Shown one piece after another: positions 1-44,822 of a stretch of DNA of 44,822 nt. This stretch comes from a virus. Positions within the stretch are counted from its first letter, which is position 1; each line of letters opens with the position of its first letter. The translations under genes were made by a program, and so were the position numbers. Below the pieces are notes generated by a model, which was not told the origin of the DNA, did not search any database, and saw only the letters and a list, made by a program, of their open reading frames with translations. Location: positions 1-44,822 of the IMG/VR virus record IMGVR_UViG_3300027852_000012. One strand, written 5' to 3'.

Positions 1-127
1 TAAGTTCTTCTACTAGGTTGGCTTGCTTTAGTGTATCTAATAATACCGTCAGCCTCCCAGCATCAATTCCTCTAGCCGACATCCTTCTTACTAATTCTGT
101 CCTAGTCATCTCACTATAGCGCTCCAA
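1..127. repeat. Terminal direct repeat, copy 1. It is identical to 44696..44822 and is either a circular-assembly overlap or true terminal redundancy.
   Basis: By eye, bases 1-127 (taagttcttctactagg...atagcgctccaa) match 44696-44822 exactly. An ORF reads continuously across the implied junction. Confidence 0.9.
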
Positions 128-1336
128 TGTCCTCCTAATTAGATCCAAATCCTGGCCTTGATCACCGAGAGATATTGGAGTAATAATAGAATCAAGCGCA
201 GGATCTAACGCCTCCAATACCTCAATAGCTCCTTGCACATCACATGCCTCAATGGCCTCCCTACAAGAATTCGCTGCCAGTATAAGTGAGATCTTCCTGA
301 CATGGTCAGCCCTCCTTTGATAGAAGTCAGCAATTCTCTCTTCGGACTCCCTTAACTTCTTATGTTGCTTATGAAACCATCTATCATAGCACTGAAATGC
401 CTCAGGAGTAAACTCTCTCGGACCTTTAAACTTCTCCTTAATCTCCTGTAGGTCCTCCAATAACTTCAAACGTAATAGTGGATCATCGGGAGGACTAATA
501 CTCATAACCCTATCAGTATACTCCTGAGCTACGAATATAATCCTAGACATGAAGCCGCCTGCAAACACATGTCTAGGAAGGCTTTCAACTAGCCACTCTA
601 AGGTAGTGCCGCCTAATAGACTTATGGCAATATTGTGCAACAACCTTTGCTTACGCGTGATGGTGATATCATCATCTACATCCTGAGCATCGTACCAACT
701 AGTTAGAGCAGACACTATCTGATTGTTGGCAGGTGTATTATGTCCAGCTAAGAACCTATACAACTCCGAAGCACATATCATAGCTATGGCATCCTTCTTC
801 TCTTCTTCAGGAGTTGTAGAGAGAATATCAGATAGTCCTTCTGGAGTCGCACGCCCAGCTATTACAGTAACTAGCTCACTCTCTCTTAGTAGGTCCACAC
901 CTATGTTAATGGCAGTGGATTTGTAGCACACACCAGGCGGAGCTACTAGTACAATATATAGAGCCCCGTAGGTATTATTCCTTCCAAAGGGAATCCAAGC
1001 ATCACGCCTTATAGCAGAGCCTAATATGGCCAAGCCCGTGAAGAAATGAAACGGCAAAGGCGCTGCACAGAATGTAGTATAGTTCAGATAGTCCTTCAAC
1101 CAACCAATGTCAGGATAGGAAGCCCTATTGAGTAGGTGTGTGAAACGTGGCACAGGTGTTGGGGTGATGGTAGGATCACCTATTAAACGCACTAACTTCC
1201 TACGTACCTTAGCTTCATGCTCCACTGTCAGGTTTAAGGTATCGAACCAGGCCCAAGCTCGTTCAACTAGTTGAGACCTATCCCCCGTTGTCAGTTCCTC
1301 TTTTAGTTGTCGTAGGAAGTCATCAGTGTTAGACAT
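1..1336 (-). CDS. DUF3987-like putative replicative helicase / NTPase. This is the N-terminal 445 codons. The CDS wraps the circular junction and ends at 44652, giving about 459 aa in total.
   Basis: Hand translation from ATG 1336..1334 is open all the way to base 1: MSNTDDFLRQLKEEL...ALYIVLVAPPGVCYKSTAINIG...ISLLGGTTLEWL...GGFMSRIIFV. The start overlaps the dpdA stop (ATGTCTAA). It is missing from the ORF track because it has no stop inside the left edge. The P-loop-like segment and the GGFxSR motif recall DUF3987. Confidence 0.6.
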   Translation of the reverse strand, partial: MSNTDDFLRQLKEELTTGDRSQLVERAWAWFDTLNLTVEHEAKVRRKLVRLIGDPTITPTPVPRFTHLLNRASYPDIGWLKDYLNYTTFCAAPLPFHFFTGLAILGSAIRRDAWIPFGRNNTYGALYIVLVAPPGVCYKSTAINIGVDLLRESELVTVIAGRATPEGLSDILSTTPEEEKKDAIAMICASELYRFLAGHNTPANNQIVSALTSWYDAQDVDDDITITRKQRLLHNIAISLLGGTTLEWLVESLPRHVFAGGFMSRIIFVAQEYTDRVMSISPPDDPLLRLKLLEDLQEIKEKFKGPREFTPEAFQCYDRWFHKQHKKLRESEERIADFYQRRADHVRKISLILAANSCREAIEACDVQGAIEVLEALDPALDSIITPISLGDQGQDLDLIRRTLERYSEMTRTELVRRMSARGIDAGRLTVLLDTLKQANLVEEL

Positions 1337-2045
1337 CGCAAGCAGTTCGCAGTGCTTGAATGTTTTCCGTCATAAGTAGTCTGTCTTGTACTACATGTCC
1401 AGGCAGTAGTAAGTCTGTGCCACGTGCCAGATTAACCAGCTTCTCTCCTATTAGAGCAGCCTTGATAGGCTTGGAAGTATCCATAGTAAGCAGCATACGA
1501 GGCCAGTAAGCAATCTCACTTAGGCTACGTAACCCTAACATATGTACTGGTACCTCTATAGAACCACATAACTTAGCCAGGACCTCCAGCCGTGGATTCA
1601 GAAAGCTAAGTCCTAGCCAATGATGCGGTGGAGCATTTAAGTAGGCCTGTGTTATCTCATCAGCATCCGCTCCTTGTGGAATATAGCCTATTTGCCAGTC
1701 AGCCTCATGTCTCTTGCAGATATCTATGAACTCCTTAGTTAACTCTTCTGTCTCCCGTCTATTAAACAATACATCAGGTGCCCACACTACATGCGGCTGC
1801 ATCGCACTGGCAAGTTTAAACAGATTTCTTGGAGATAACGTGGCCTCGCTCTCAACATGAGCTTCATAGGCGCCATTATCCAACATAACGAATGATTCTG
1901 GTTCTGCTGCTTTCCTTTTATAATACTCAAAGTACTCTGTGTGCTCCCAAGCAGTGCTGGCAATACAAAAGTGAAAATCCACAAGCCCCTCAGTCTCTTC
2001 CAGATGTGCTATAGGTACTTCTAATGACATTCTTATCTTAGCCAT
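1329..2045 (-). CDS. dpdA: DpdA-like tRNA-guanine-transglycosylase-family enzyme (7-deazaguanine DNA transglycosylase)
   Basis: 238 aa. FVMLDNGAYE resembles the TGT DSGGFQ Asp motif, HMLGL the TGT hLFG motif, and LLTMDTSKP the second catalytic Asp motif (DMFDS/C-like). SD AAGGAGG. It shares an operon with queC, queD, queE and folE. Confidence 0.65.
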   Translation of the reverse strand: MAKIRMSLEVPIAHLEETEGLVDFHFCIASTAWEHTEYFEYYKRKAAEPESFVMLDNGAYEAHVESEATLSPRNLFKLASAMQPHVVWAPDVLFNRRETEELTKEFIDICKRHEADWQIGYIPQGADADEITQAYLNAPPHHWLGLSFLNPRLEVLAKLCGSIEVPVHMLGLRSLSEIAYWPRMLLTMDTSKPIKAALIGEKLVNLARGTDLLLPGHVVQDRLLMTENIQALRTACDV

Positions 2046-2262
2046 TGGCTCCTCCTTTCGCTTTTTTCTCTAAAGTTCTTCTTACCTGTTCCATGGCCCA
2101 ATCAAGCTTATCTTCCGGCATAGCATCCACAGCTTCATTAATAGGTGCTTCCAACTTATGGAAGTAATACATTTGCTTGAATAGATGTTGCTGTCCTTCC
2201 GTGCACTCGGCCAATCCTTCCTTTAGTTGCTTTCTCGCAAAATCTTGTAACTGATTGTTCAT
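2038..2262 (-). CDS. Small conserved-looking phage protein (74 aa), function unknown
   Basis: Start re-picked to the ATG at 2262 (MNNQLQDFARKQLKEGL...), which has the SD AAAGGAGGGAG and forms an ATGA overlap with the polymerase stop. Confidence 0.6.
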   Translation of the reverse strand: MNNQLQDFARKQLKEGLAECTEGQQHLFKQMYYFHKLEAPINEAVDAMPEDKLDWAMEQVRRTLEKKAKGGANG

Positions 2263-4466
2263 GCTACTCCCTCCTTTATTAGGTCTCTCCAATTAGAGCC
2301 CGAGGTTATTTTTATAGGAAAGCACCTATCACCTAGTTCAGGTATAGGTCTTTCCATGCACTCCCTTATTAGGATGATCGCAGCATCCTTATCCTTAAGA
2401 GTACAGTCTACAACTAAGTTATCATGTACTGTTAACGCCAAATGTACTTCAGGCAACTCCCTCTCAAGCCTCTCATCCAATATAGCCATAGAGCCCAGTA
2501 ATGTATCACTACCAGCTGACTGTATTGGAAAGTTATACATCTCAGCTATATTCCCTTCAAAATACTTAAATCTATTATAGGCACTTTTTATCACTGTCTT
2601 ATTAGTCACACTAGCCTGAAAGCGTAGTATTGCAGGATACCTACCTGTAACAACAGCTTGTAGCTTCAAGGCCTCAGCTCTGGAGATACCAAACTCCTTA
2701 GCAATAGATTCAGGTTGCCTATTATACATGGTTCCAAAGACAATAGCTTTAGCTCTCAAGAGTTCCTTGGAACTTATTTCCTCCCTACCATATACCTCAG
2801 CACAGATATTCTCATGGATATTAACCCCATCATCTAAGTCCCTCTGTAGCGCTTTATCACCTGTCACCGCCGCTATGATACGTATCTCGAACTGCCCATA
2901 ATCCCCTTCTACGAATAAGCCACCATCCGGTACAAAGATATGTCTTGACCTCCTAGGTACATTCTGTAGGTTGGGATCACTGCTGGCTAGCCTCCCAGTC
3001 TTGGTGCGTGTTTGGCTATAGGTAGTATGTATCCTACCTCCTATTAGCCTAGAACGCATGCCCTCTAGGAAGGTACTACGTAACTTATCCAGCTCCCTGA
3101 AGTATAATATCCTCTTCACTACTGGATGCTCTAACTTCTCTAAGTCCTCCTTGCTGGTTCTATATTGTTGCCCTCCCTTAGTCCTCTTTAAAGACATACC
3201 CATGTTCACAAGCAAATCACCAATCTGAGCTCCTGAGCGAATATTAATTCCTTGACTCCAGAATATCTTCTCGGTACTATCTATAGCCTCTCCTATAGTC
3301 TTAACCTCTTCCTCTACGGCTGATAGATCTAACTTAATACCTCTGCATTGCATCTTGGATATGACCTTGATGAGCCTGGTCTGAGTTTGGAACAGCTCCC
3401 ACTGACCATTCTCCTTCAGCTCTTGCTTTAGGGGGAGCATTATGCGCCTAGTAGTGTCAGCATCAGTGTTGTTATACTGAGAGAGCTCACTTCTGGACAT
3501 GCGGCCTATATTCTTACCGCTGCCAGGTTTATAGTAGGTTACATCAGTATATACTGAAGTTAGATAGGCTAGGTCATTAGGTAAAATTGGGCACACTAAG
3601 TAGGCCGCTGTCTTAGTATCGAAATACATATTATTTGTCTCTATGCCGTAGTACTTTAAATAGTACCAGTCAAAGGTACCCCTCTGTACAATTTTAGGAG
3701 CAGGACCCTCCAATATCCTAACAGCCTGCTCTCTACCTCGCACATCCCGCATATCAAAGTGCATAGAGCGCCCCAGTCCCCAACTGAATGCGATACCTAG
3801 GACATCACCCTCCCAAGGCTTAAGAGTACCAGGAGTTTCAATATCAAAGGAGACAGGATTAGCAGGATCGAACAGCTCATCTGGGGGGTCCCCATACTCA
3901 GGAAACCATGTTTCGTAATAGGTAGGAGTTCTTCTTAGGGTAGCTTCATAAGAGGCCTCCTTAGCTCTTTCTAGGTCTCTTACTACCGTAGTCCAATACT
4001 TTTGATTACCGCGCATTATGTAGGAAGGGTGGAAAGTGGGCATGACCTTTGGAACTTTGGCCAAGCCATATATTAGTGAACCTCTCCAATTAGTAATGCC
4101 CACTTTCCCAGTCAGCACTGTAAGTGCCTCATTACCCAGTGCTATGATAATATTAGGTTCATGCGATTCAATATCTGCCTTTAAGTACTCCCAGCAAGCT
4201 GCAATCTCCTCCTCTGTAGGTGCCTTATTGCCAGGAGATAAGCACCTACATACATTAGTAACAAAGCATTCGCTTCTGCGGATCTTAGCATCACGTAGTA
4301 AGGCGTTAAGTACTCTGCCAGCTCCACCAACAAAAGGCAATCCTTCCCTATCTTCATCATAGCCAGGATTCCTCCCTACGAGCATTATGGCACATTTCGG
4401 AGGACCTAGGCCTTGAACAATCTGTGTTCTTGTCTTACTGAGATCGCACTTTGTGCATTGAGTCAT
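2259..4466 (-). CDS. Family-A DNA polymerase with an N-terminal family-4 uracil-DNA-glycosylase-like domain and a 3'-5' exonuclease domain
   Basis: UDG4 motifs: CTKCDL, MLVGRNPGYDEDREGLPFVGGAG, FHPSY. Exonuclease motifs: FDIETPG, YNNTDADTT. PolA motif A DYGQFEIRIIA, motif B RAKAIVFGTMYNR, motif C VHDNLVVD, plus SSDPNLQNVP. Confidence 0.9.
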   Translation of the reverse strand: MTQCTKCDLSKTRTQIVQGLGPPKCAIMLVGRNPGYDEDREGLPFVGGAGRVLNALLRDAKIRRSECFVTNVCRCLSPGNKAPTEEEIAACWEYLKADIESHEPNIIIALGNEALTVLTGKVGITNWRGSLIYGLAKVPKVMPTFHPSYIMRGNQKYWTTVVRDLERAKEASYEATLRRTPTYYETWFPEYGDPPDELFDPANPVSFDIETPGTLKPWEGDVLGIAFSWGLGRSMHFDMRDVRGREQAVRILEGPAPKIVQRGTFDWYYLKYYGIETNNMYFDTKTAAYLVCPILPNDLAYLTSVYTDVTYYKPGSGKNIGRMSRSELSQYNNTDADTTRRIMLPLKQELKENGQWELFQTQTRLIKVISKMQCRGIKLDLSAVEEEVKTIGEAIDSTEKIFWSQGINIRSGAQIGDLLVNMGMSLKRTKGGQQYRTSKEDLEKLEHPVVKRILYFRELDKLRSTFLEGMRSRLIGGRIHTTYSQTRTKTGRLASSDPNLQNVPRRSRHIFVPDGGLFVEGDYGQFEIRIIAAVTGDKALQRDLDDGVNIHENICAEVYGREEISSKELLRAKAIVFGTMYNRQPESIAKEFGISRAEALKLQAVVTGRYPAILRFQASVTNKTVIKSAYNRFKYFEGNIAEMYNFPIQSAGSDTLLGSMAILDERLERELPEVHLALTVHDNLVVDCTLKDKDAAIILIRECMERPIPELGDRCFPIKITSGSNWRDLIKEGVA

Positions 4467-4475
4467 TGCCTCCTC

Positions 4476-5093
4476 CTACCGCAGATGCAGTGTTTTATGT
4501 AGTTGGGTAGAGTATCTCCACTGAGGAAATTTCCTACATAGTTCCAAAGCCTCAATGCTCTTATCATAATCAGGAAACTGTTTTTTCATCCAAGGCTGGA
4601 TCCATAATACTTGTCTTGCTCTTCTCGATTCCCACATAGGCTTACCCTGCCTATCGCAGAAAGCATAAAAGGCCTTTGAAGATAACTTAACCTCATCAGC
4701 ATAAAGTAGAGCAGGAAGGTTCTTTAACATGCTGCAGGGCTTAGGACTACAAGCTAACCAAGGCAGCCAAGAGAACACAGGCGGTCTACAAGTGCCATTA
4801 GTCTCAATATGCGTATACTTACCCATACTATCCAGCTCACGTATCAGAGGAGTTACATCCTGCAATAAAGGCTCTCCACCTGTTATCATAACCCTATCTA
4901 CTTTATCATCAGCTGCCACCCTCTCAAGGATGCTGTCAACACTCATCTCAAAGCCGTCCTCATGTGCTGTATCGCACCCTAAGCAGACCAGATTACAGCC
5001 ACTAAGCCTTATAAAAGTCATAGTCTGTCCAATCCATACTCCTTCTCCACATATTGAGGTAAATATCTCATTTACTTTTAGCTCCGAAGACAT
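4476..5093 (-). CDS. queE: 7-carboxy-7-deazaguanine synthase (radical SAM)
   Basis: 205 aa. ICGEGVWIGQTMTFIRLSGCNLVCLGCDT carries a CX3CX2C cluster motif, followed by ITGGEPL. SD AAGGAGGG. Confidence 0.85.
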   Translation of the reverse strand: MSSELKVNEIFTSICGEGVWIGQTMTFIRLSGCNLVCLGCDTAHEDGFEMSVDSILERVAADDKVDRVMITGGEPLLQDVTPLIRELDSMGKYTHIETNGTCRPPVFSWLPWLACSPKPCSMLKNLPALLYADEVKLSSKAFYAFCDRQGKPMWESRRARQVLWIQPWMKKQFPDYDKSIEALELCRKFPQWRYSTQLHKTLHLR

Positions 5094-5394
5094 CTCTTCC
5101 CTCCTTTCTTATTTTGTCCAGCCTAAGCCACATGAAATAAGCATAGTTAGCCATATCTAATATTTCCCACTCTAGCTCTCTTAACAGATCAACCTGCTCA
5201 TGATGATGACTACCATACTGACCATGCCCATGCCCTCCAGAGAGTCTCTTCCCACATTGCTCAGCAAATTGGATAAATTTCTTAGCCTCTGGAATTTTTA
5301 ATTCACTGTTGCTATGTGAGGGACGGAAGGGCTCTTGAATATTGCTGCTGTCTGCATCATTCCTGCTGTCTTTACTCCCCTGATCTTCGTGCAT
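5068..5394 (-). CDS. Hypothetical protein, possibly an all-alpha MazG/NTP-pyrophosphohydrolase-like fold. The start is uncertain.
   Basis: 108-aa ORF. The ATG at 5394 has the SD GAGGAG 7 nt upstream but lies 97 nt inside folE in another frame. The C-terminal half (GHGQYGSHHHEQVDLLRELEWEILDMANYAYFMWLRL) looks like a helical NTP-PPase-type segment. It overlaps the queE start. Confidence 0.45.
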   Translation of the reverse strand: MHEDQGSKDSRNDADSSNIQEPFRPSHSNSELKIPEAKKFIQFAEQCGKRLSGGHGHGQYGSHHHEQVDLLRELEWEILDMANYAYFMWLRLDKIRKEGRDVFGAKSK

Positions 5395-5828
5395 AGGTGT
5401 TCTCCTCTTATAGTACAGTTTACATAATCACTATAGGGAATTAATAAATCCACTATCCTCTGAGTCATTCTCTCCTGCAGTGCTGGACCCTCTCGAACTA
5501 CCTCATCAATCAGCCTTGGTAGTTTGCTAAGTCCTAATACTTGGACCCTCCCAACTCCTTTTGGCTTGTAGGTGACATCTACGATAAAGACCACTGGCAA
5601 TAGGTGATGCGGACATAAGGACCATACTTCATGATTCTTGAGTGATATTATCCCAGCATACTGCTCAGGGAAGGTCTTTATCTCATTGTTGCTTTCTCCG
5701 AACATCTCCTCTAGGAAGCCTACATATCTACTTGGCGTACCTAGGTAAGGCTCTTTATTACTATCCACTCCCATTGCTGCAAGGAGTTCTTCAATTGCTG
5801 CTTCTGCTCTCTTATAATCTATTATCAT
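5298..5828 (-). CDS. folE: GTP cyclohydrolase I
   Basis: 176 aa with LCPHHLLPV and GEHLCTKIRGV (H.C...RG) motifs. SD GGAGG. Confidence 0.85.
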   Translation of the reverse strand: MIIDYKRAEAAIEELLAAMGVDSNKEPYLGTPSRYVGFLEEMFGESNNEIKTFPEQYAGIISLKNHEVWSLCPHHLLPVVFIVDVTYKPKGVGRVQVLGLSKLPRLIDEVVREGPALQERMTQRIVDLLIPYSDYVNCTIRGEHLCTKIRGVKTAGMMQTAAIFKSPSVPHIATVN

Positions 5829-9026: not shown

Positions 9027-9395
9027 TTATCTCCTCCATAATGCATAAGCGTTATCTGTTTCCCATACTTGAACGCTTTCTAGACAGATTTCTGACTCAA
9101 AAACTCCAATATCTCTAACAATCTCCCTAGCTAACTCAGCAGCAAACACCTCACAAGTAGGAAACTTCATATAATCATTGAGGCACTTGTGGTCATACTG
9201 CCGGAGTGTTGGTAGTACTAACTTATCCAGGGCTTTGAAGTCTATTACCATAGAGCCTGCTAAGGTTTGCATAGGGCCCATAGGCCCACTAACTCTCACA
9301 TCTATTTTATAAGTGTGTCCATGCATCCTCCCACAATCAGAATGTCCTGGTAGGTAGTGAGCGGAATGTATTGTATATTGCTTACCTATTATCAC
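9027..9395 (-). CDS. queD: 6-carboxy-5,6,7,8-tetrahydropterin synthase
   Basis: 122 aa with a GTG start. Motifs HSAHYLPGH...CGRMHGHTYKIDV are PTPS/QueD His motifs. Confidence 0.8.
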   Translation of the reverse strand: MIIGKQYTIHSAHYLPGHSDCGRMHGHTYKIDVRVSGPMGPMQTLAGSMVIDFKALDKLVLPTLRQYDHKCLNDYMKFPTCEVFAAELAREIVRDIGVFESEICLESVQVWETDNAYALWRR

Positions 9396-11250: not shown

Positions 11251-11895
11251 TCAGGCCTGCGCATAAGCCACGGGATCCTTCATGCCAGCGTCAGCGAAGC
11301 CCTTTAGTCGAATCTTACAGCTCTCGCATCCTCCACAGGCCTTACTGCCCATTGGACTATAGCAGCTCCACGTCTGTGAGTAGTCTACGTTCAGGTGAAA
11401 CCCAGTGCATATAATGCCCGCTTTGGACATTGTTAGTAGTGGTGCGTGTATCCTAACTGCCTTAGGACGTTCGTAGGTCTTAGCCATTTGCTCAAAGGCC
11501 CTTAGGAAATCCTCTCGACAATCAGGATAGCCACTGTAATCTATGGCATTAGCTCCGATGAAGATGTCATAGGCTCCGATAGTCTCAGCATAGCAAAGAG
11601 CCAGCGATAGGAGTATGGCATTCCGGGCCGGCACGTAGGTAGTGGGCAGACCATTCCTACAGGCTTTAGTGCCTACTAGGCTACTGCCTGCTATACTACT
11701 AAGATCCATTGTGACTAGCTTATGACTAGCTGCTAGCATCCCCTGAGTCATAGCATACCCCAGCTCTATGCTATGCATCTGTCCGTAGTTAATACTCAGC
11801 GCATAAGGTTCAAAGTCCTCCTCCTTAGCGATTGCTAATGCCGTAGCACTGTCTAAGCCGCCGGATAATAACACAATTGCTTTCGTATCGGTCAT
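11251..11895 (-). CDS. queC: 7-cyano-7-deazaguanine (preQ0) synthase
   Basis: 214 aa. PP-loop motif LLSGGLDSATA. C-terminal Zn motif CGGCESCKIR. SD AGGAGG. Confidence 0.85.
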   Translation of the reverse strand: MTDTKAIVLLSGGLDSATALAIAKEEDFEPYALSINYGQMHSIELGYAMTQGMLAASHKLVTMDLSSIAGSSLVGTKACRNGLPTTYVPARNAILLSLALCYAETIGAYDIFIGANAIDYSGYPDCREDFLRAFEQMAKTYERPKAVRIHAPLLTMSKAGIICTGFHLNVDYSQTWSCYSPMGSKACGGCESCKIRLKGFADAGMKDPVAYAQA

Positions 11896-11934: not shown

Positions 11935-11963
11935 ATTATAACCTCGATTATTATATAAATCAA
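11935..11963 (-). promoter_or_regulatory. Sigma70-like promoter reading leftward into queC
   Basis: On the minus strand: TTGATT, a 17-nt spacer, then TATAAT. On the plus strand these are aatcaa 11958-11963 and attata 11935-11940. It lies about 40 nt upstream of the queC ATG. Confidence 0.5.
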
Positions 11964-12064
11964 GCTTAAAATATTTAATGATTTCAACTAGTTAGAGTAC
12001 TATATCTATAACTACTTGAAATCATTGAATAAATTTAAAAACACTATATAAATCAACTAGTTAT

Positions 12065-12114
12065 AAAAACTCTAACGAAATCACATAGTTAAGAGGTATT
12101 ATTAGTTATTATTA
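12065..12114. repeat. ~50-bp direct repeat, copy A
   Basis: Copy A is aaaaactctaacgaaatcacatagttaagaggtattattagttattatta. The copy at 12520-12570 differs by about 5 substitutions or indels. Confidence 0.8.
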
Positions 12115-12219
12115 AAAAGCCTAATGAAATCAAGTAGTTACAAACTGTTATTCCTACAAACTACTTTAAGGAATACCTCTTAACTAGTTAAAATCATTAA
12201 ACTAATTAAGATTAAAAAC

Positions 12220-12245
12220 AGGTATCAGGTATTCTTTAATATATA
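12220..12245. repeat. Inverted repeat, left arm (26 nt)
   Basis: aggtatcaggtattctttaatatata equals the reverse complement of 12481-12507 apart from a 1-nt indel. The arms are 235 bp apart. Confidence 0.85.
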
Positions 12246-12341
12246 GATATATATCTAAATATATACGTATATCCCAATGATAATAGGGAAGGATGTACAA
12301 AAGGATGTGTGTAAAACTAAATAGATATCGATCACTATATG

Positions 12342-12379
<38 letters not shown>

Positions 12380-12398
12380 TTATATTATCATATTTATA

Positions 12399-12460
12399 TT
12401 CCAATATCCCAATATCCATATCCCACTATCCATATCCCACTATCCCAATATCCATATTCC
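12399..12460. repeat. Short tandem ATATCC / CTATCC-type repeats, including a 14-nt unit repeated twice
   Basis: The array reads ccaata tcccaata tccata tcccacta tccata tcccacta tcccaata tccata ttcc. The unit tccatatcccacta occurs at 12415-12428 and 12429-12442. Confidence 0.85.
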
Positions 12461-12480
12461 GATCTATAGCTTTAGCTATA

Positions 12481-12507
12481 TATATATTAAGAGAATACCT
12501 GATACCT
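12481..12507. repeat. Inverted repeat, right arm (27 nt)
   Basis: tatatattaagagaatacctgatacct is the reverse complement of the left arm at 12220-12245. Confidence 0.85.
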
Positions 12508-12519
12508 CTTAAAATTCTT

Positions 12520-12570
12520 AAAAACTCTAATAAAATCAACTAGTTAAGAGGTATTATTTAGTTATTATTA
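12520..12570. repeat. ~50-bp direct repeat, copy B
   Basis: Sequence: aaaaactctaataaaatcaactagttaagaggtattatttagttattatta. Confidence 0.8.
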
Positions 12571-12687
12571 GGTATTATTTATAATAACCTCTAACCTATT
12601 GAAATCATTAGAGTTTTTGCTAACTACTTAGAATCATTAGACTTTTTCAAAGAACTCCTCCACTACCTACACAACTCCTAATCCACC

Positions 12688-12849
12688 CTACCTATTCCTA
12701 ACTATCTTAGTATTTACAACATCCTCACCATCCCAACATATACTCTCCATTCTATAACTCAAACTCCTCTCACTTAACATCTTCTCTATCAACATCTCCA
12801 CTTCTTCAACATTATCTTCATCCAACTCTATAGTTATAGTCTTTCTCAT
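12688..12849 (-). CDS. Early small acidic protein (53 aa), C-depleted coding
   Basis: Not in the ORF track. SD AGGAGGG, then ATG. Sequence: MRKTITIELDEDNVEEVEMLIEKMLSERSLSYRMESICWDGEDVVNTKIVRNR. Confidence 0.5.
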   Translation of the reverse strand: MRKTITIELDEDNVEEVEMLIEKMLSERSLSYRMESICWDGEDVVNTKIVRNR

Positions 12850-12860
12850 ATCACACCCTC

Positions 12861-13007
12861 CTAATTATTAACATACTCAACTTCTGTACCACTAACTAAC
12901 TCCACATCTTCAAAACACTCAATCATTAAATCCACCAACTTCTCTAACTTCAATATTTTCTCCCAAGACTCATCCTTTAACTTTAACTTAATCCTTAGTT
13001 CATACAT
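12861..13007 (-). CDS. Early small protein (48 aa), C-depleted coding
   Basis: Not in the ORF track. SD AGGAGGATG, then ATG. Sequence: MYELRIKLKLKDESWEKILKLEKLVDLMIECFEDVELVSGTEVEYVNN. Confidence 0.45.
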   Translation of the reverse strand: MYELRIKLKLKDESWEKILKLEKLVDLMIECFEDVELVSGTEVEYVNN

Positions 13008-13028
13008 ATTACATCCTCCTATTCAAAT

Positions 13029-13283
13029 TTATTCTCCAAACAACACCTTACCTAACAACTCTACTAAATCTCCAACACAAGTCCACTTATCCTCTCCTAA
13101 ATTATCTAATACTACATCCATCTCCTTAACTAACAACTTCCTCTTCTCCTTAGTTACACTCTCATCAATTAATCCCTCCAACCCTACCATCACATCTTCT
13201 TTACAAAACCACATATCATCTCCCCAAAAACGATTTCTCAACACTTTCCTTAATTTTCTCATCAACAACAACTCTTTAGTCAT
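13029..13283 (-). CDS. Early small protein (84 aa), C-depleted coding
   Basis: Track ORF with the SD AAGGAG. The protein has no Pro, His, Gln or Ala at all. Confidence 0.6.
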   Translation of the reverse strand: MTKELLLMRKLRKVLRNRFWGDDMWFCKEDVMVGLEGLIDESVTKEKRKLLVKEMDVVLDNLGEDKWTCVGDLVELLGKVLFGE

Positions 13284-13314
13284 ATCACAATCTCCTTATC
13301 TTATGATTGTAAGA

Positions 13315-13355
13315 GGGAAGGAATACATAGTTCTATCCACTACATATTCCTTCCC
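13315..13355 (-). promoter_or_regulatory. 11-bp-stem hairpin in the only G/C-balanced island of the early cassette
   Basis: gggaaggaata (13315-13325) pairs with tattccttccc (13345-13355) around a 19-nt loop. It sits in the intergenic gap between two early ORFs. Confidence 0.45.
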
Positions 13356-13378
13356 ATTATACACTATTCCACTATACA

Positions 13379-13537
13379 CTACCCCTTCAACTTCTCTAAC
13401 AATTCCTCCAATTCACTCAATTGATCCATTGTATCTTTCTCATCTACTAATTCCTCATCCAAATCATTATACAAACATTCCATAGTATTCTCCAAACTCT
13501 CTCTTAACAATACTACTTCCCTATCATCTAAATCCAT
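13379..13537 (-). CDS. Early small highly acidic protein (52 aa), C-depleted coding
   Basis: Not in the ORF track. SD GGAAGGAGGTG. Sequence: MDLDDREVVLLRESLENTMECLYNDLDEELVDEKDTMDQLSELEELLEKLKG. Confidence 0.5.
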   Translation of the reverse strand: MDLDDREVVLLRESLENTMECLYNDLDEELVDEKDTMDQLSELEELLEKLKG

Positions 13538-13581
13538 ACTACTTCACCTCCTTCCCTTCCATATTCCCAACTTCCAACTTC

Positions 13582-13743
13582 CTACATCAATCCTCTCTCT
13601 TTACATAATGATTCCAATTCCTTCCTCTTAAGATTCCTCTTCCTATTATATTCCTTCCTTTTCTCAATCTCAATCCTTCTCTTCTCTACGAACAACTGTA
13701 ATTCCTCATCACTATAATCTTTAACATCCTTATTCATAGTCAT
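13582..13743 (-). CDS. Early small basic coiled-coil-like protein (53 aa), C-depleted coding
   Basis: Not in the ORF track. SD TGGAGGATTG. Sequence: MTMNKDVKDYSDEELQLFVEKRRIEIEKRKEYNRKRNLKRKELESLCKERGLM. Confidence 0.5.
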   Translation of the reverse strand: MTMNKDVKDYSDEELQLFVEKRRIEIEKRKEYNRKRNLKRKELESLCKERGLM

Positions 13744-13793
13744 ATCACAATCCTCCATTAATTAATTAGTTATACAAGCTAACTTATAATCTT

Positions 13794-13822
13794 ATTATAA
13801 TATGGATTTATAATAATATCAA
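13794..13822 (-). promoter_or_regulatory. Near-consensus sigma70-like promoter reading leftward into the early cassette
   Basis: On the minus strand: TTGATA, a 17-nt spacer, then TATAAT. On the plus strand these are tatcaa 13817-13822 and attata 13794-13799. It lies about 50 nt upstream of the first early ATG at 13743. Confidence 0.55.
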
Positions 13823-13826
13823 CATT

Positions 13827-13894
13827 AAAAACTTCAATAATATTACATAGTTATAAAGATATACTTATAACTATATAGAATTATTGAAGTTTTT
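13827..13894. repeat. 68-nt AT-rich palindrome (15-bp plus 10-bp stems) directly abutting the early promoter -35
   Basis: aaaaacttcaataat (13827-13841) pairs with attattgaagttttt (13880-13894). Inner atagttataa (13847-13856) pairs with ttataactat (13865-13874). Confidence 0.8.
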
Positions 13895-13932
13895 ATTTGA
13901 TATTGGGTAGGCATATATAGATAGTTAGTATG

Positions 13933-13996
13933 TAGATAGATAGTAGGCAGATAGAACTACCATACATAGATAGATAGTAGGTAGATAGTATTACCA
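13933..13996. repeat. Two tandem ~31-bp direct repeats spaced 33 bp apart
   Basis: tagatagatagtaggcagatagaactaccat (13933-13963) and tagatagatagtaggtagatagtattaccat (13966-13996). This is a local purine-rich island inside a pyrimidine-rich strand. Confidence 0.8.
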
Positions 13997-14257
13997 TCCA
14001 CACTAAGTTAGTTCCTCCTACCTTCTTACCCACCACTAACATAGTTAAACCATCACAACTTAGTTAGTACTATCTAACTTCTCTCACTACTCCTTCCTTC
14101 CTACCTACTCTCTACCTAACTACTACCATCCTACAGAAGATAGGTCCACCTAACATTATCACACAATCCTACCCCCCCACCATCACAAAACCATCCCCAT
14201 ATCATCGTCATTACCTGCTTTCGGAATATATCCACTGTGGAGGATAATGTTGATTGA

Positions 14258-14291
14258 GGGCCAAATGGGCCAGTGGGCCAGTGGGCCAAAT
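14258..14291. repeat. Four tandem GGGCCA(A/G)(A)T repeats about 80 nt upstream of terS (candidate pac or terminase-recognition site)
   Basis: The run reads gggccaaat gggccagt gggccagt gggccaaat. A further aggccaatat lies at 14317-14326. Confidence 0.75.
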
Positions 14292-14332
14292 ATCCGATTA
14301 TAAATTGTTGGTCTTAGGCCAATATATGTTGG

Positions 14333-14361
14333 TTGCTTACTAAGGCTAAATAGGCTATAAT
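14333..14361 (+). promoter_or_regulatory. Sigma70-like promoter positioned to give a leaderless terS mRNA
   Basis: TTGCTT (14333-14338), a 17-nt spacer, then TATAAT (14356-14361). The ATG at 14368 is 7 nt after the -10. terS is the only well-supported CDS here without any SD. Confidence 0.4.
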
Positions 14362-14367
14362 AATAAC

Positions 14368-14838
14368 ATGAATGACAGCAGCAGCCTGACTACACAGGAA
14401 CTCATAATAATGGCTATGTATCAGATTGGCAATGGGCCTACGGCCATAGCTCTGCGATGCGGCTTGGATTCGGCTACGGTACAGAACTTCCTAAAGAGTC
14501 CTAGGGCCATTGCCTATCGTCTCGAACAGGAAGAGGCTACTGATCAGCTTATGGCTGGGTTATACCGGGACGGTGCTGAGGCCTTGCGCCGAGCACTAGT
14601 GCATCCTGATCTGAAGTATAGCCTGAAGGCCGCGGAGCTAGTATTCAAGGTCCTCGGCAAGATGAAGCCTGAGGGAGCAGAGTCCGATGGTCCCCAAGTC
14701 CATATAGATAAGATACTGCAAATAATCCAGCAACCGCCTTCAACACAAGAACTAAAAGAGGCTAAGCAATATTGTGCAACCAGAACAATTAGTGCGCCTA
14801 CGCAGACAGTTTCGCGAGCTGTTGCAGATAGCGAATAA
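14368..14838 (+). CDS. terS: Terminase small subunit (HTH-type), putative
   Basis: 156 aa lying immediately upstream of, and overlapping, terL. N-terminal HTH-like segment: GNGPTAIALRCGLDSATVQNFL. Confidence 0.5.
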   Translation: MNDSSSLTTQELIIMAMYQIGNGPTAIALRCGLDSATVQNFLKSPRAIAYRLEQEEATDQLMAGLYRDGAEALRRALVHPDLKYSLKAAELVFKVLGKMKPEGAESDGPQVHIDKILQIIQQPPSTQELKEAKQYCATRTISAPTQTVSRAVADSE

Positions 14839-20739: not shown

Positions 20740-21006
20740 ATGAACTATCAACTATTAACAAACCTATGGAAGTTTAAAACGCCTAATAAGATTGCGGTAC
20801 GTTGTGGGTCCTGCCATAGGCTATTAAGTTTAAAACAGTGTCTCAAGGGTGGCTGCAAATGTGGTCACCGTGAGATGCGTGAAGCAAGATGCCTAACTTT
20901 AAGGGAGAGATTTAAGATTAAATTTTTAGGTTTTAAGCCGGCCTTAGCAGATGGTGATGTGGGCAAGAGATTAGACACACCTAGGGATATGGGAGGTGTT
21001 CAATGA
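20740..21006 (+). CDS. Zn-ribbon-like small protein (88 aa)
   Basis: RCGSCHRLLSLKQCLKGGCKCGH has a CxxC...C...CxC pattern. SD GAGGAGG. Confidence 0.55.
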   Translation: MNYQLLTNLWKFKTPNKIAVRCGSCHRLLSLKQCLKGGCKCGHREMREARCLTLRERFKIKFLGFKPALADGDVGKRLDTPRDMGGVQ

Positions 21007-22349
21007 AAAAAAGGGTGATGATTGGAATACCTGCTTTTGCTGGTGTTGATGGAGAGATACTTGAGGACCTTATGTGCTTAGCCTTTCATCTTGGCAGGCG
21101 AGAGCCTGAGTATGACTTCTTCCTTAAGGTGATTAGCAAGAAGGAACAGTTCAGGGCTAGGAACTTCCTAGTCAATATGGCCTTGGCTGGTGGCATGGAT
21201 TATCTTTGGATGTTGGATGATGATATGGTCATTCCTCCTAATGCCTTCAGTCGATTAATAGCTCATGGTAAGGAAGTTACGGGGGCCCTATACTATCAAA
21301 GAACACATCCTTATAATCCTGTTATGCTTAGAGCTATTAAAGGAGCCAGAGGTACTGTCAGGCATGAGTGGATTCACGACTTCAAGAGGGGTCTAATACC
21401 TGTGGATGTTATTGGTGGCGGGTGTATGTTATTTGATATGAAGGTGTTTAAGAATATGCCCGAGCCTTACTTCTGGATTGATGGAATAATTGGTACTGAT
21501 ATCTACATATGTACTAGGCTAAAGGAGTTAGGATATCAGCCCTACTGTGATACTACTCTGGAGTTAGGTCATCTGGGAGAGAGGCAAGTAGTTACTGGTA
21601 ATGACATGTCTGTTAGCGTACGTAAGTTCGGGAGCTATGCTGCGGAGTTTGTTAGTGATGTTCAGGAATACTTACATATGACTCCTGATATGTATGAGGA
21701 GAAAGTCTCTTATGCTATAGCATCTAGGGAGGTGGTGTGGAATAGCAAGAAGCGTGGGACTCCAGAGGAGATTGCTAGTTATTACCGGGAGCAGGGAGCA
21801 ATGAATATTTTGAGCTGGAGTTGGTATAATACTCAGGATAAGTGGTCAAGGGACTTCTACCCACAATTCATGGAGGCTACTTGGTTGAAGGCACTAGGAG
21901 TTAAGAAGATATTGGAGTTTGGTTGTGGGCTTAGTCTTCTGGGGGTGTCGCTATGTCAGCAAGGCTTTGAGTTAACCTGTGCTGATCTTCCTAATGTTGC
22001 AACTATGGACTTTGCTAAGTGGAGAGCTAAGAAGTATGATATAGCATCTAGGTTTATTGACTTGCTCCACGGAATACCTGCCTGCGGTAAGCAAGATGCT
22101 ATTATGCTATTTGATGTAATTGAGCATCTGCCTGATCCCTGGAATACTCTTAATAAGCTTATGCTACTACTAAATTCAAAGGGGGTGATAATAACAGATG
22201 CCCATATGAAGACCTTTGCAGGTGCTGAGCAAGGATCACCGCAGCACCTAAAGCGCTATGATAGAGATACCTTTGCTTTAGATTTATGTAAGAAGTTCAA
22301 TATGGTACAAAGTTTAAATAATCCTTATTTATTTAGGAGGGCAACATAA
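21003..22349 (+). CDS. Fusion of a GT2-like glycosyltransferase (N-terminal) and a class I SAM-dependent methyltransferase (C-terminal)
   Basis: GT-A features: LWMLDDDMVIPPNAF and GGGCMLFD. Methyltransferase motif I ILEFGCGLSLLG, acidic residue after beta-2 in TCADL, and motif IMLFDVIEHLPDP. Confidence 0.7.
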   Translation: MKKRVMIGIPAFAGVDGEILEDLMCLAFHLGRREPEYDFFLKVISKKEQFRARNFLVNMALAGGMDYLWMLDDDMVIPPNAFSRLIAHGKEVTGALYYQRTHPYNPVMLRAIKGARGTVRHEWIHDFKRGLIPVDVIGGGCMLFDMKVFKNMPEPYFWIDGIIGTDIYICTRLKELGYQPYCDTTLELGHLGERQVVTGNDMSVSVRKFGSYAAEFVSDVQEYLHMTPDMYEEKVSYAIASREVVWNSKKRGTPEEIASYYREQGAMNILSWSWYNTQDKWSRDFYPQFMEATWLKALGVKKILEFGCGLSLLGVSLCQQGFELTCADLPNVATMDFAKWRAKKYDIASRFIDLLHGIPACGKQDAIMLFDVIEHLPDPWNTLNKLMLLLNSKGVIITDAHMKTFAGAEQGSPQHLKRYDRDTFALDLCKKFNMVQSLNNPYLFRRAT

Positions 22350-44664: not shown

Positions 44665-44822
44665 CTATATAACCTCCCTCCTTTCTTACCGACTTTAAGT
44701 TCTTCTACTAGGTTGGCTTGCTTTAGTGTATCTAATAATACCGTCAGCCTCCCAGCATCAATTCCTCTAGCCGACATCCTTCTTACTAATTCTGTCCTAG
44801 TCATCTCACTATAGCGCTCCAA
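44652..44822 (-). CDS. 3' end of the junction-spanning DUF3987-like helicase CDS. Bases 44696-44822 duplicate 1-127.
   Basis: Reading the frame through the junction gives ...LVEELKVGKKGGRLYRWTK, then a TAA at 44652-44654. It overlaps the PRT start by 13 nt. Confidence 0.6.
   Translation of the reverse strand: MERYSEMTRTELVRRMSARGIDAGRLTVLLDTLKQANLVEELKVGKKGGRLYRWTK
44696..44822. repeat. Terminal direct repeat, copy 2 (identical to 1..127)
   Basis: Exact match by eye. Confidence 0.9.

What the first reader, a model, noticed from the sequence alone, without database searches (positions are those of the whole stretch)
12650..13760. About 1.1 kb early cassette of five tiny genes written almost without cytosine (template strand about 1.5% G)
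Seen in sequence:
- On the plus strand of 12661-13260 I count only about 9 G in 600 nt.
- The same depletion continues to about 13760, except for one small island at 13300-13330.
- The minus strand here carries five consecutive SD-led ORFs of 48-84 aa: 13743-13582, 13537-13379, 13283-13029, 13007-12861 and 12849-12688.
- They lie downstream of a near-consensus promoter (13794-13822).
- Their codons almost never contain C. As a result the proteins essentially lack Pro, His, Gln and Ala, and are built from E, K, L, D, V, R, M, G, I, N.
- The rest of the genome has ordinary composition, so this is local and extreme. It is far beyond normal purine loading.

Consequences that follow logically:
- No palindromic restriction site containing a G:C pair can exist in the tract.
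- The mRNA cannot form G-C pairs and is essentially unstructured.
- The transcription template carries almost no G, so it has almost no 7-deazaguanine-modifiable base in a genome that encodes DpdA.
- The purine-rich RNA on a pyrimidine-rich template would form unusually stable RNA:DNA hybrids.

Inference: this is a specialised first-expressed module, possibly small acidic anti-defence or host-takeover proteins. I cannot tell which selective pressure is responsible.
Basis: partly seen in the sequence, partly recalled or inferred. Interest (0 to 1): 0.8.

Follow-up and report, generated by a model that had tools for sequence, protein, structure and literature searches.

The report
Phage early genes written without cytosine
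The first small operon of this phage and the DNA beside it use only three of the four DNA letters on each strand; selection maintains this, I found no description of it in the literature, and a cultured marine phage has the same kind of tract with a different letter missing.

Summary
The + strand of 12661-13260 has 9 G in 600 nt, and 12650-13760 has 28 G in 1111 nt. No other base shows such a trough anywhere in this complete 44.7-kb circular phage genome.

Five real genes lie on the minus strand. Each has a Shine-Dalgarno site, pN/pS is 0.12, and 0 of 1000 shuffles give comparable ORFs. They are almost C-free, most strictly at synonymous sites (third-position C 1/295 against 16%).

The constraint acts on nucleotides and on position, not on the proteins:
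- It covers spacers and non-coding flanks (12342-13877 and 14012-14206).
- It recurs in diverged relatives (L001, L056), is partial in L059, and is absent in L034/L065, which carry the same first gene and 7-deazaguanine genes.
- Ortholog comparison argues against C-to-T decay.

Unexpectedly, the cultured podovirus CRP-7 has a 734-nt non-coding tract free of A at the same genomic position. Across about 100 substitutions between relatives, that tract stays free of the forbidden base.

Best guess (0.3): this is the leading, immediate-early segment, and separating one base pair between the strands erases targets of sequence-specific host defences. RNA-level explanations are close rivals. The peptides' functions are unknown. 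DpdA was not found.

The parts
12342..13877 (+). Main tract depleted of G on the + strand (53 G in 1536 nt), equivalent to a C-free sense strand for leftward transcription
   Evidence: Maximal-scoring segment. Base counts.
13794..13822 (-). Sigma-70-type promoter of the cassette, TTGATA-17-TATAAT
   Evidence: 11 of 12 matches. Identical in L063/L064. Equivalent promoters precede the first gene in L001, and by my reading in L059, L065 and L056.
13826..13895 (.). Palindrome with 31-nt arms abutting the -35. It shares its motif with the repeats at 11962-12650 and looks like an operator.
   Evidence: inverted repeat I2 (90% complementary, 8-nt spacer) and direct-repeat family D3.
13582..13743 (-). 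Gene a: 53 aa, basic (pI 9.4). The only cassette gene conserved across the phage family.
   Evidence: Family alignment A2. Homologs in L001, L056, L059, L034/L065.
13379..13537 (-). Gene b: 52 aa, very acidic (net charge -14)
   Evidence: Conserved in L063/L064.
13315..13355 (-). 17-bp RNA hairpin that holds the 'island' of C's
   Evidence: z = -5.1. No substitution in L063/L064. Nine C's where 1.3 are expected.
13285..13312 (-). 8-bp helix (UUACAAUC with GAUUGUGA) that encloses the Shine-Dalgarno site of gene c
   Evidence: Minimum-free-energy structure.
13029..13283 (-). Gene c: 84 aa, an orphan
   Evidence: AlphaFold model is four helices at pLDDT 60.
12861..13007 (-). Gene d: 48 aa, acidic
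12688..12849 (-). Gene e: 53 aa, acidic, an orphan
12520..12618 (-). Long A-U-rich hairpin followed by a U-run. Probable 3' end of the cassette transcript.
   Evidence: z = -4.8. Inverted repeat I3.
11962..12650 (.). Untranslated AT-rich region. It holds about ten copies of a ~30-nt motif in both orientations, (TA)n, and ATATCCCA repeats with 22-nt periodicity. It resembles a replication origin or an injection-stop region.
   Evidence: Equivalent regions with (CT)n and lineage-specific iterons occur in L001, L056, L059 and L065.
13918..14000 (.). GATAGATAGTAGG-type repeats. This stretch is C-poor on the + strand, so the polarity flips.
   Evidence: family D5; the corresponding L063 segment has 3 of the depleted base in 122 nt.
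14012..14206 (+). Second G-poor tract (7 G in 195 nt). Non-coding, non-repetitive, and conserved in L063/L064.
14258..14288 (.). Four GGGCCA repeats just upstream of the terS promoter. Possibly binding sites for terminase or a regulator.
   Evidence: Read. Other lineages have their own repeat arrays at this position.

Best explanation
SHOWN:
- The tract is the first leftward transcription unit of a complete, podovirus-like, 44.7-kb phage genome. It lies between the terminase operon and an origin-like repeat region.
- Its sense strand is kept free of C, and the template strand free of G.
- The constraint acts on nucleotides, is tied to this position, and is maintained by selection rather than by C-to-T decay.
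- It spills into flanking non-coding DNA.
- A distantly related cultured podovirus, CRP-7, keeps a non-coding tract free of A at the same position.

INFERRED (my preferred mechanism):
- This is the leading, immediate-early segment of the genome. It is the DNA that sits in the cell and is read by host RNA polymerase before any phage protein exists.
- Placing the two members of one base pair on separate strands (G/C here, A/T in CRP-7) removes nearly every sequence that needs both members on one strand. That includes all palindromes containing that pair, and most bipartite restriction-modification sites.
- The exposed segment therefore offers almost no target to sequence-specific host nucleases until the early proteins are made.
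- The polarity is forced by coding. Start codons and Shine-Dalgarno sites need G, so only C can be dropped from the sense strand.
- The five peptides would then be takeover or anti-defence factors, but that is untested.
For: Selection acts on nucleotides, not on proteins:
- Third-position C is 1/295. The spacers are G-free on the + strand.
- All five genes comply, including four orphans.

The pattern is not deamination decay:
- Where orthologs have C, the C-less L056 gene has T5/A6/G7 and T5/A10/G11.
- At four-fold sites the share that C would hold is spread over T, A and G in proportion.

The constraint extends to the DNA beyond the obvious transcript:
- L056's tract (377-1055) runs from its terminator to the -35 of the divergent promoter. 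About 380 nt of it is non-coding DNA upstream of the cassette promoter.
- L001's tract runs about 165 nt upstream of its promoters.
- The window has the second tract at 14012-14206 and a polarity flip at 13918-14000.
- 6-mers holding both G and C make up 5-18% across 12001-14200, against 52 +/- 12% elsewhere.
- G/C-containing 4-mer palindromes occur at 4.3 per kb against 32.3 per kb.
- Two lineages build their terminators from A-U pairs only.

The parallel in CRP-7:
- Record positions 57336-58069 are A-free on the early-sense strand and abut gp01. The genome has the same two-arm layout.
- Copies in CRP-7-type contigs differ by 14-26%. Only 2-6% of substitutions involve the forbidden base, against about 50% in the flanks.
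- A base-pair-segregation logic fits both phages. Logic specific to C does not.

Context:
- The SU10-type adaptor and P22-like portal suggest a podovirus.
- Published work shows that restriction-modification motifs matter specifically in the first-injected region (PMC12455610).
- In T5, sites in the first-step-transfer region are the vulnerable ones, and that region ends in a large untranslated repeat-rich stop signal (10.1101/866236).
Against: - The physical genome ends and the packaging mode are unknown. The assembly is circular. With headful packaging there would be no fixed leading end.
- AT-only palindromes are not avoided: 42 observed against 39.7 expected.
- Residual G/C palindromes are only mildly below expectation.
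- GC-only sites such as GGCC and CCGG remain in the CRP-7 tract.
- Asymmetric sites made of A, G and T only remain possible on the sense strand.
- The phage probably already modifies its guanines, which should itself blunt restriction.
- Close relatives (L034/L065, and some CRP-7-type contigs) do without the trait.
- Some flanking three-letter stretches are arrays of a short motif that simply lacks one base.
- The C's inside the transcript cluster in RNA helices, which points to an RNA-level logic as well.
- The window's tract and CRP-7's tract may not be the same phenomenon.
Confidence: 0.3

Rival explanations
1. RNA-level design. C is excluded so that the immediate-early mRNA cannot fold, giving maximal and immediate translation of five tightly spaced cistrons. 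It also offers no YC-rich loading site to termination factor Rho, and no target to C-requiring mRNA endonucleases such as MazF-type toxins. C is put back only where a helix is wanted.
For: - Minimum free energy is -35 kcal/mol per 300 nt, against -79 +/- 10 for the rest of the genome (weakest value there -50). Random sequence of the same GC content with G = C gives -54.
- YC dinucleotides occur at 1.3 per 80 nt against 6.5. C minus G is -22 against -5.6.
- 22 of the 43 C's in the predicted transcript lie in the island hairpin and the terminator hairpin.
- One helix masks the Shine-Dalgarno site of gene c.
- Rho loading sites are C-rich and G-poor, and Rho silences phage DNA (PMC6144790 and PMC3526286, listed).
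Against: - The tract extends into DNA upstream of the best promoters in three lineages. Upstream promoter candidates are weak, and the one in the window is not conserved in L063.
- In L001 and L056 the unit is a single 200-300-nt gene ending in a terminator, which leaves little scope for Rho.
- Two lineages avoid C even in their terminator stems.
- The CRP-7 tract lacks A, keeps G and C, and is rich in hairpins: 11 terminator-like sites against 4 expected. A single RNA-level rule therefore cannot cover both phages.
- G is not favoured over A at synonymous sites: 63% against 59%, not significant.
Confidence: 0.2
2. Evasion of a deaminase acting on single-stranded DNA or RNA. The non-template strand of the first-transcribed DNA is exposed as a single strand. 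It lacks the base whose deamination is mutagenic or triggers cleavage: C here, A in CRP-7.
For: - In both phages the missing base is on the early-sense (non-template) strand.
- C and A are the two bases whose deamination changes pairing (own knowledge).
- The phage polymerase carries an N-terminal uracil-DNA glycosylase domain. This suggests that uracil in DNA matters to this phage.
Against: - No deaminase is known for these unknown hosts.
- The replacement pattern shows no excess of the deamination products.
- The stretches upstream of the promoter would not be exposed by transcription.
- Each phage drops only one of the two vulnerable bases.
Confidence: 0.1
3. Priming or activation of an origin by an R-loop. 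A G-rich, C-free transcript on a C-rich template forms a very stable RNA:DNA hybrid just upstream of the AT-rich iteron region. It primes or opens the origin for the phage's PolA-type polymerase.
For: - Every relative has the same layout: promoter, then G-rich transcript, then terminator, then AT-rich repeats with (TA)n or (CT)n.
- The polymerase is of the PolA type.
- The global minimum of cumulative GC skew is at about 14000-14500.
- R-loops are favoured by G-rich RNA (PMC4083084, listed; also own knowledge of ColE1, T7 and T4 origins).
Against: - High G density is enough for R-loops. Near-total exclusion of C is not needed.
- Five conserved, purifying-selected genes are an odd primer.
- L034/L065 have the same layout without any skew.
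- The CRP-7 tract has no G-over-C skew.
Confidence: 0.07
4. A template free of the modified base. Host RNA polymerase must read incoming DNA modified with 7-deazaguanine, so the first template strand carries no G and therefore no modified base.
For: - FolE, QueD, QueE and QueC are encoded.
- The template strand has 2.5% G.
Against: - No DpdA was found.
- All other early genes, including the polymerase and the modification genes themselves, have ordinary template G.
- L065 carries QueD, FolE, QueE and PolA-UDG, yet its first gene has 14% C.
- 7-deazaguanine keeps its Watson-Crick pairing face (own knowledge).
- The non-template strand is 32% G, so it would be heavily modifiable.
Confidence: 0.07
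5. A neutral by-product of a local, strand-specific mutational bias or of expansion of short motifs, with no function.
For: - Some flanking three-letter stretches are arrays of a motif that lacks one base: GATAGATAGTAGG in the window, CACTATAC in L056, ATATCCCA in the window.
Against: - The boundaries are sharp and coincide with the promoter and terminator.
- The coding tract is non-repetitive and under purifying selection, pN/pS 0.12.
- The replacement pattern is not that of deamination.
- In CRP-7-type tracts, about 100-140 substitutions accumulated with only 2-6% touching the forbidden base, against about 50% in the flanks. C-T changes are almost absent while A-G changes are abundant.
- C reappears exactly where helices need it.
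Confidence: 0.05

Closest known systems
Restriction-motif avoidance in the first-injected (leading) region of phages: T5 first-step-transfer DNA, and T7-like Autographiviridae (PMC12455610; 10.1101/866236)
   Same: - A short segment at the head of the early genes, read by host RNA polymerase, encoding small and poorly conserved early proteins.
- It is followed, as in T5, by a large untranslated repeat-rich region.
- Selection acts on the DNA sequence of that segment rather than on its proteins.
   Different: - The known cases lack particular motifs of particular enzymes. Here a whole base is removed from a strand over 0.6-1.5 kb, including from protein-coding sequence.
- The leading-end status of this tract has not been demonstrated.
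A-free tract of Roseobacter phage CRP-7 (MK613349.1, 57336-58069) and CRP-7-type viral contigs. I found no mention of it in PMC6918029.
   Same: - Same position (head of the early arm, facing the packaging operon) and similar length.
- One base is excluded from the early-sense strand.
- The composition is held through many substitutions.
- The trait is present in some close relatives and absent in others.
   Different: - The missing base is A, not C.
- The tract is entirely non-coding. The annotated gp72 is probably an artefact of a strand that cannot contain a stop codon.
- It keeps G and C and can fold.
Transcription-coupled strand asymmetry (purine loading, Szybalski's rule)
   Same: The sense strand is richer in G than in C. 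The whole genome shows this in both arms.
   Different: Genome-wide GC skew is about 0.1-0.3. In the tract it is 0.73-0.82 per 500-nt window, and C is essentially absent, with sharp boundaries.
Engineered one-base-free templates: G-less cassettes for in vitro transcription, and ACA-less mRNAs of the MazF single-protein-production system (own knowledge)
   Same: A transcript or template is deliberately written without one base or motif, to make it independent of, or immune to, one factor.
   Different: Those are laboratory constructs. This is a natural operon conserved in a lineage, and its transcript still holds about 20 scattered C's, so it does not dispense with CTP.
R-loop-forming G-rich transcribed regions: ColE1 RNA II origin, T4 and T7 origins, immunoglobulin switch regions (own knowledge; PMC4083084)
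   Same: A G-rich non-template strand lies downstream of a strong promoter and next to an AT-rich origin-like region.
   Different: Those regions are G-rich but not C-free, and they are not packed with translated genes. A relative with the same layout shows no skew.

Membership tests
Leading (first-injected) early region under restriction-avoidance selection | Lies at the genome end that enters the cell first | not testable with these tools
   The assembly is circular, with a 127-nt overlap. Position next to terS with repeat arrays, the podovirus-type adaptor and portal, and the two-arm layout are compatible but prove nothing.
Leading (first-injected) early region under restriction-avoidance selection | Carries strong host-type promoters and small early genes | tested here: met
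   TTGATA-17-TATAAT. Five Shine-Dalgarno-led genes under purifying selection. The promoter position is conserved in relatives.
Leading (first-injected) early region under restriction-avoidance selection | Depleted of restriction-modification recognition motifs beyond what composition explains | tested here: inconclusive
   G/C-containing 4-mer palindromes occur at 4.3 per kb against 32.3 per kb, but this follows from the composition. Against dinucleotide shuffles the cassette has 2 against 6.1 (p about 0.05), and 6-mers are as expected. AT-only palindromes are not avoided.
Leading (first-injected) early region under restriction-avoidance selection | Encodes anti-restriction or anti-defence proteins | tested here: inconclusive
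   No match in PHROGs, Pfam or PDB. Genes c and e are orphans. The structure model is too poor to search with. One peptide is very acidic, net charge -14.
Ordinary transcription-coupled purine loading | Moderate excess of G over C on the sense strand, spread over all genes | tested here: not met
   All 33 other genes have 14-24% C. The five cassette genes have 1.6-2.8%. The boundaries are sharp.
Phage 7-deazaguanine DNA modification system (DpdA type) | preQ0 pathway genes FolE, QueD, QueE, QueC | tested here: met
   Pfam and PHROG hits at 5298-5828, 9027-9395, 4476-5093 and 11251-11895.
Phage 7-deazaguanine DNA modification system (DpdA type) | DpdA, the DNA guanine transglycosylase | tested here: inconclusive
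   No hit in Pfam, NCBIfam, PADLOC, PDB or tblastn for any tested ORF. The candidate at 1329-2045 beside PolA gave an unusable model, pLDDT 34.
Rho-resistant transcript | No C-rich, G-poor, unstructured stretch of about 80 nt | tested here: met
   YC dinucleotides at 1.3 per 80 nt against 6.5. C exceeds G in 2% of windows against 19%.
Rho-resistant transcript | The host has Rho, and Rho would otherwise terminate this unit | not testable with these tools
   The host is unknown. The units in L001 and L056 are only about 300 nt long.
R-loop-primed replication origin | Promoter, then G-rich RNA over a C-rich template, then an AT-rich unwinding element with iterons | tested here: met
   The same layout occurs in relatives.
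R-loop-primed replication origin | The skew is required wherever the layout occurs | tested here: not met
   L034/L065 have the same layout with 14% C in the first gene.

The most novel reading that the evidence does not exclude
Some tailed phages write the segment of their genome that is exposed and expressed first in a three-letter alphabet per strand. They keep the two members of one base pair on opposite strands (G/C in this lineage, even through five protein-coding genes; A/T in the CRP-7 group). This would be a general, sequence-independent way of being invisible to host factors that need both members on one strand, such as restriction-modification sites, palindromes and other motif readers. 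It would be a new class of genome-encoded defence evasion, and a natural example of proteins encoded without one nucleotide.
Probability: 0.3. Interest if true: 0.9.

Novelty: categorically new. Interest (0 to 1): 0.8.

Why it matters
- It would be a natural, selected case of protein-coding genes written without one nucleotide. The proteins have no Ala, Pro or His, and almost no Gln. It shows how far a nucleic-acid-level constraint can override protein composition.
- The trait is positional and variable between lineages. It also recurs with a different missing base in a cultured phage (CRP-7, with a culturable Roseobacter host), so it can be tested directly at the bench.
- If the cause is evasion of host defences at the leading end, it gives a simple compositional signature for finding first-injected regions and early anti-defence genes in uncultured phage genomes.
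- If the cause lies at the RNA level, it is a natural design rule for unstructured, terminator-proof mRNAs.
- Practical warning: on strands lacking T or A no stop codon can occur, so gene callers invent ORFs there, as with CRP-7 gp72.

Tried and rejected
Searches that found nothing:
- No nucleotide relative of the window among 50,697 deposited phages.
The frequency of such tracts across all phages therefore remains unmeasured. Among the 88 loci (717 kb) held, they occur only in this family and in CRP-7.
- Rfam gave only generic hairpin matches below threshold.
- The genome-contig scan found only TerL relatives at 27-32% identity in Clostridia MAGs. This gives no host assignment.
- Vibrio phage douglas 12A4 and Aeromonas phage phiARM81mr (TerL 26-27%) have a different layout and were not followed up.

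Structure predictions that failed:
- Gene c has pLDDT 60, and the DpdA candidate has pLDDT 34. Both were too poor for fold searches, so none was run.

Ideas rejected:
- CTP-independent transcription. The window transcript still has about 43 C's.
- Separate selection for G. The G-ending share of purine-ending codons is 63% against 59%, not significant.
- Simple C-to-T decay.
- Sequencing or conversion artefact. The ORFs are intact, the orthologs are conserved, and independent assemblies from JGI, ENA and Logan agree.
- Avoidance of AT-only palindromes.
Full report
- The + strand of 12661-13260 has 9 G in 600 nt. Positions 12650-13760 have 28 G in 1111 nt, nine of them at 13305-13330. The window mean is 22% G.
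- The lowest 300-nt G fraction in the window lies in this tract. No comparable trough exists for A, C or T. GC skew per 500 nt reaches -0.73 to -0.82, against 0.3 or less elsewhere.
- The window ends in a 127-nt exact repeat of its start. It is therefore a complete, circularly assembled genome of 44,695 bp.

THE FIVE GENES ARE REAL.
- The minus strand carries five ORFs at the stated coordinates. Each has a GGAGG-type Shine-Dalgarno site. They follow a TTGATA-17-TATAAT promoter at 13822-13794.
- Stop triplets are very frequent in this composition (10.4%). Even so, 885 of 1111 nt lie in ORFs of at least 45 aa. Shuffles give 32 nt on average, and 0 of 1000 reach the observed value.
- Two contigs 92-94% identical to the window (L063, L064) keep the genes. 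Pooled pN/pS is 0.12.
- None of the five peptides matches anything in PHROGs, Pfam or the PDB. Genes c and e are orphans in 5.8 billion and 1.8 billion proteins respectively.
- Four peptides are acidic. The first is basic.

THE CONSTRAINT ACTS ON NUCLEOTIDES AND ON POSITION.
- C is rarest at synonymous positions: 1/295 at position 3 against 16.2%, and NNC among NNY codons is 1/67 against 31%, P = 6e-10.
- Leu, Arg and Ser use only their C-free codons. Ala, Pro and His are absent. The residual C's are mostly Thr ACT/ACA.
- The intergenic spacers are also G-free on the + strand.
- G is not separately favoured over A: 63% against 59% of purine-ending codons. The signal is avoidance of C.
- Objective segmentation extends the tract to 12342-13877, with a second non-coding piece at 14012-14206.
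- Between these two lies a repeat block that is C-poor instead.
- Across 12001-14200 only 5-18% of 6-mers hold both G and C, against 52 +/- 12% elsewhere. These are the only such bins in the genome.

WHAT THE GENOME IS.
- The leftward arm encodes QueC, QueD, FolE, QueE, a PolA with an N-terminal UDG domain, a PD-(D/E)XK nuclease and an AAA_24 ATPase.
- The rightward arm encodes TerS-like and TerL proteins, a P22-like portal, a major capsid protein, an SU10-type adaptor, and orphan proteins of 1237 and 1898 aa.
- The nearest deposited phage by TerL is Roseobacter phage CRP-7 at 32% identity. The host is unknown.
- No DpdA was detected by any library.

RELATIVES.
- Synteny is conserved in every relative examined: terS reads rightward; the first early gene reads leftward; then come a terminator and an AT-rich region with iterons and (CT)n or (TA)n.
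- The first gene forms a small family (alignment A2).
- L001 (TerL 58% identical) has a G-free tract at 1975-2619. It covers that one gene, about 165 nt upstream of its promoters, and a 19-bp terminator stem made only of A-U pairs.
- L056 (TerS 59% identical) has a tract at 377-1055, with 0-1 G per 100 nt for most of it. The gene has no C at all. The tract runs from a clear intrinsic terminator to the -35 of the divergent promoter, and includes about 380 nt of non-coding DNA.
- L059 is intermediate, with 10% C in the gene.
- L034/L065 has normal composition (14% C), although it encodes QueD, FolE, QueE and PolA-UDG.
- About thirty loci with TerL near 30% identity show nothing similar.

THE PATTERN IS NOT DEAMINATION DECAY.
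- Where L059 or L065 have C, the C-less L056 ortholog has T5/A6/G7 and T5/A10/G11. Typical changes are Gln to Glu/Lys/Arg, Ala to Gly/Glu, and Thr to Ser/Val.
- At four-fold sites the share that C would hold is spread over T, A and G in proportion.
- Between the window and L063, 18 substitutions include 10 A-G changes and only 4 that touch C.

RNA FEATURES.
- The cassette mRNA is the least structured in the genome.
- It has very few YC dinucleotides.
- Of the 43 C's in the predicted transcript, 22 lie in two highly significant hairpin regions:
  - a 17-bp stem at 13315-13355, invariant in L063/L064, followed by a helix that masks the Shine-Dalgarno site of gene c;
  - a long terminator-like hairpin at 12520-12618.

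THE UNEXPECTED PARALLEL IN CRP-7.
- While scanning every locus fetched, I found that CRP-7 (an isolated podovirus with the same two convergent arms) has a 734-nt tract at record positions 57336-58069 with at most 2% A on the early-sense strand.
- The tract is non-repetitive and runs up to the ribosome-binding site of gp01.
- It is non-coding. A strand without A has no ATG and no stop codon. The CDS annotated on the other strand (gp72) is probably an artefact, because a strand without T cannot contain a stop codon either.
- CRP-7-type viral contigs L104, L122 and L125 carry the tract, and L093 and L129 carry shorter ones. Other contigs with TerL 92-94% identical have none.
- Copies differ by 14-26%. 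Only 2-6% of the 94-141 substitutions involve the forbidden base, against about 50% in the flanking 1.2 kb. A-G changes are abundant and C-T changes almost absent. This is direct evidence that selection acts on composition in non-coding DNA.
- The paper describing CRP-7 does not mention the tract. Three literature searches found no description of one-base-free regions in phages.

INTERPRETATION.
- Shown: a selected, position-specific, lineage-variable exclusion of one base from the early-sense strand, at the head of the early arm.
- Inferred: the mechanism.
- An explanation that depends on C in RNA fits the window's transcript well. That covers lack of structure, blindness to Rho, and MazF-type nucleases. 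It does not explain the non-coding flanks, the A-U-only terminators, or the A-free, foldable CRP-7 tract.
- A logic that fits both phages is segregation of one base pair between the strands. This removes every palindrome containing that pair and every site needing both members on one strand.
- Type I enzymes methylate adenine on both strands (own knowledge). An A/T-segregated duplex could therefore carry no such site.
- Published work shows that restriction pressure concentrates on the first-injected segment (PMC12455610), and that sites in the T5 first-step-transfer region are the vulnerable ones. That T5 region ends in a large untranslated repeat-rich stop signal (10.1101/866236), which resembles 11962-12650 here.
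- I therefore favour the model of a leading, immediate-early segment written to be targetless, at 0.3.
- Its weak points:
  - The genome ends are unknown.
  - AT-only palindromes are not avoided.
  - Residual palindromes give only weak extra signal.
  - The phage probably modifies its guanines already.
- Rivals and their weights: RNA-level design 0.2; deaminase evasion 0.1; R-loop origin 0.07; template free of the modified base 0.07; neutral bias 0.05. The remainder is unassigned.

VERDICT.
- The finding is real and stranger than reported.
Its 'early module' reading is plausible.
- Its DpdA premise is unverified, and a relative with the same pathway genes but normal composition weakens the link to modification.
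- The peptides' role is unknown.
- I found no prior description of the phenomenon, and it can be tested experimentally in CRP-7.

Noticed in passing
L087 37-771 (MK613349.1 57336-58069); also L104 6401-7054, L122 12-601, L125 1261-1824: Roseobacter phage CRP-7 and several CRP-7-type contigs carry a non-coding tract of 560-735 nt almost free of A on the early-sense strand, directly upstream of the first early gene. Its composition is held through 14-26% sequence divergence.
   Followed up: yes
L087 141-836 (CRP-7 gp72): The CDS annotated as gp72 lies inside the T-free strand of that tract. A strand without T cannot contain a stop codon, so this 'hypothetical protein' is probably an artefact of gene calling.
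   Followed up: partly
window 1-127 and 44696-44822: An exact 127-nt terminal direct repeat, the signature of a circular assembly. A 459-aa ORF (44652 to 1336, minus strand) crosses the junction and is invisible to ORF listing on the linear window.
   Followed up: yes
window 2259-4466 (-): The DNA polymerase A has an N-terminal uracil-DNA glycosylase superfamily domain (E = 9e-30). The L065 relative has the same fusion.
   Followed up: no
window 1329-2045 (-): A 238-aa ORF beside PolA, the most likely place for a DpdA. It has no detectable homolog in Pfam, NCBIfam, PADLOC, PDB or deposited phages. The AlphaFold model was unusable (pLDDT 34).
   Followed up: partly
window 11962-12650 and 13826-13895: About ten copies of a ~30-nt motif (TAAAAACTCTAATAAAATCAACTAGTTA) lie in both orientations, forming several long AT-rich palindromes. 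One palindrome abuts the -35 of the cassette promoter. This suggests that one DNA-binding protein controls both the origin-like region and the cassette.
   Followed up: partly
window 12382-12467: ATATCCCA/ATATCC repeats with alternating 14- and 8-nt spacing (22-nt period) sit next to a (TA)n run at 12337-12372. They look like iterons. Relatives have (CT)n runs at the same place, where the L056 and L059 contigs break.
   Followed up: no
window 12846-12865, 13004-13023, 13280-13299, 13744-13760: Four of the five cassette genes share nearly the same translation initiation region (GGAGG/GGAG followed by nTGTGATATGA or ATGTAATATG). This suggests that genes were added to the cassette together with a standard ribosome-binding module.
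   Followed up: no
window 14153-14233 (-): The non-coding G-poor tract holds a 26-codon ORF (MTMIWGWFCDGGGVGLCDNVRWTYLL) that stays open in L063/L064 despite changes at codons 2-3. It is unclear whether it is translated.
   Followed up: no
window 36587-42283 and 27913-31626 (+): Two very large orphan proteins (1898 and 1237 aa) lie at the far end of the structural arm, with no Pfam or PHROG match. CRP-7 has three proteins of 1200-1370 aa at the equivalent place. They are possibly ejection or internal virion proteins.
   Followed up: no
window 21003-22349 (+): A fusion of glycosyltransferase-like and methyltransferase domains sits inside the structural module.
   Followed up: no
P0017 (592-nt NCBI contig): A homolog of the first cassette gene is fused to an N-terminal P-loop segment typical of the phosphoribulokinase/uridine kinase family. 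This may be a real fusion or an assembly chimera.
   Followed up: no
L085, L086, L058, L060, L034 upstream of terS: Each lineage has its own array of short repeats directly upstream of terS: ATAATAGTTAT, GTTACATTGT or TGTCACC. The window has GGGCCA there. Some arrays form local G-poor and C-poor blocks. These are probably terminase or regulator binding sites.
   Followed up: partly
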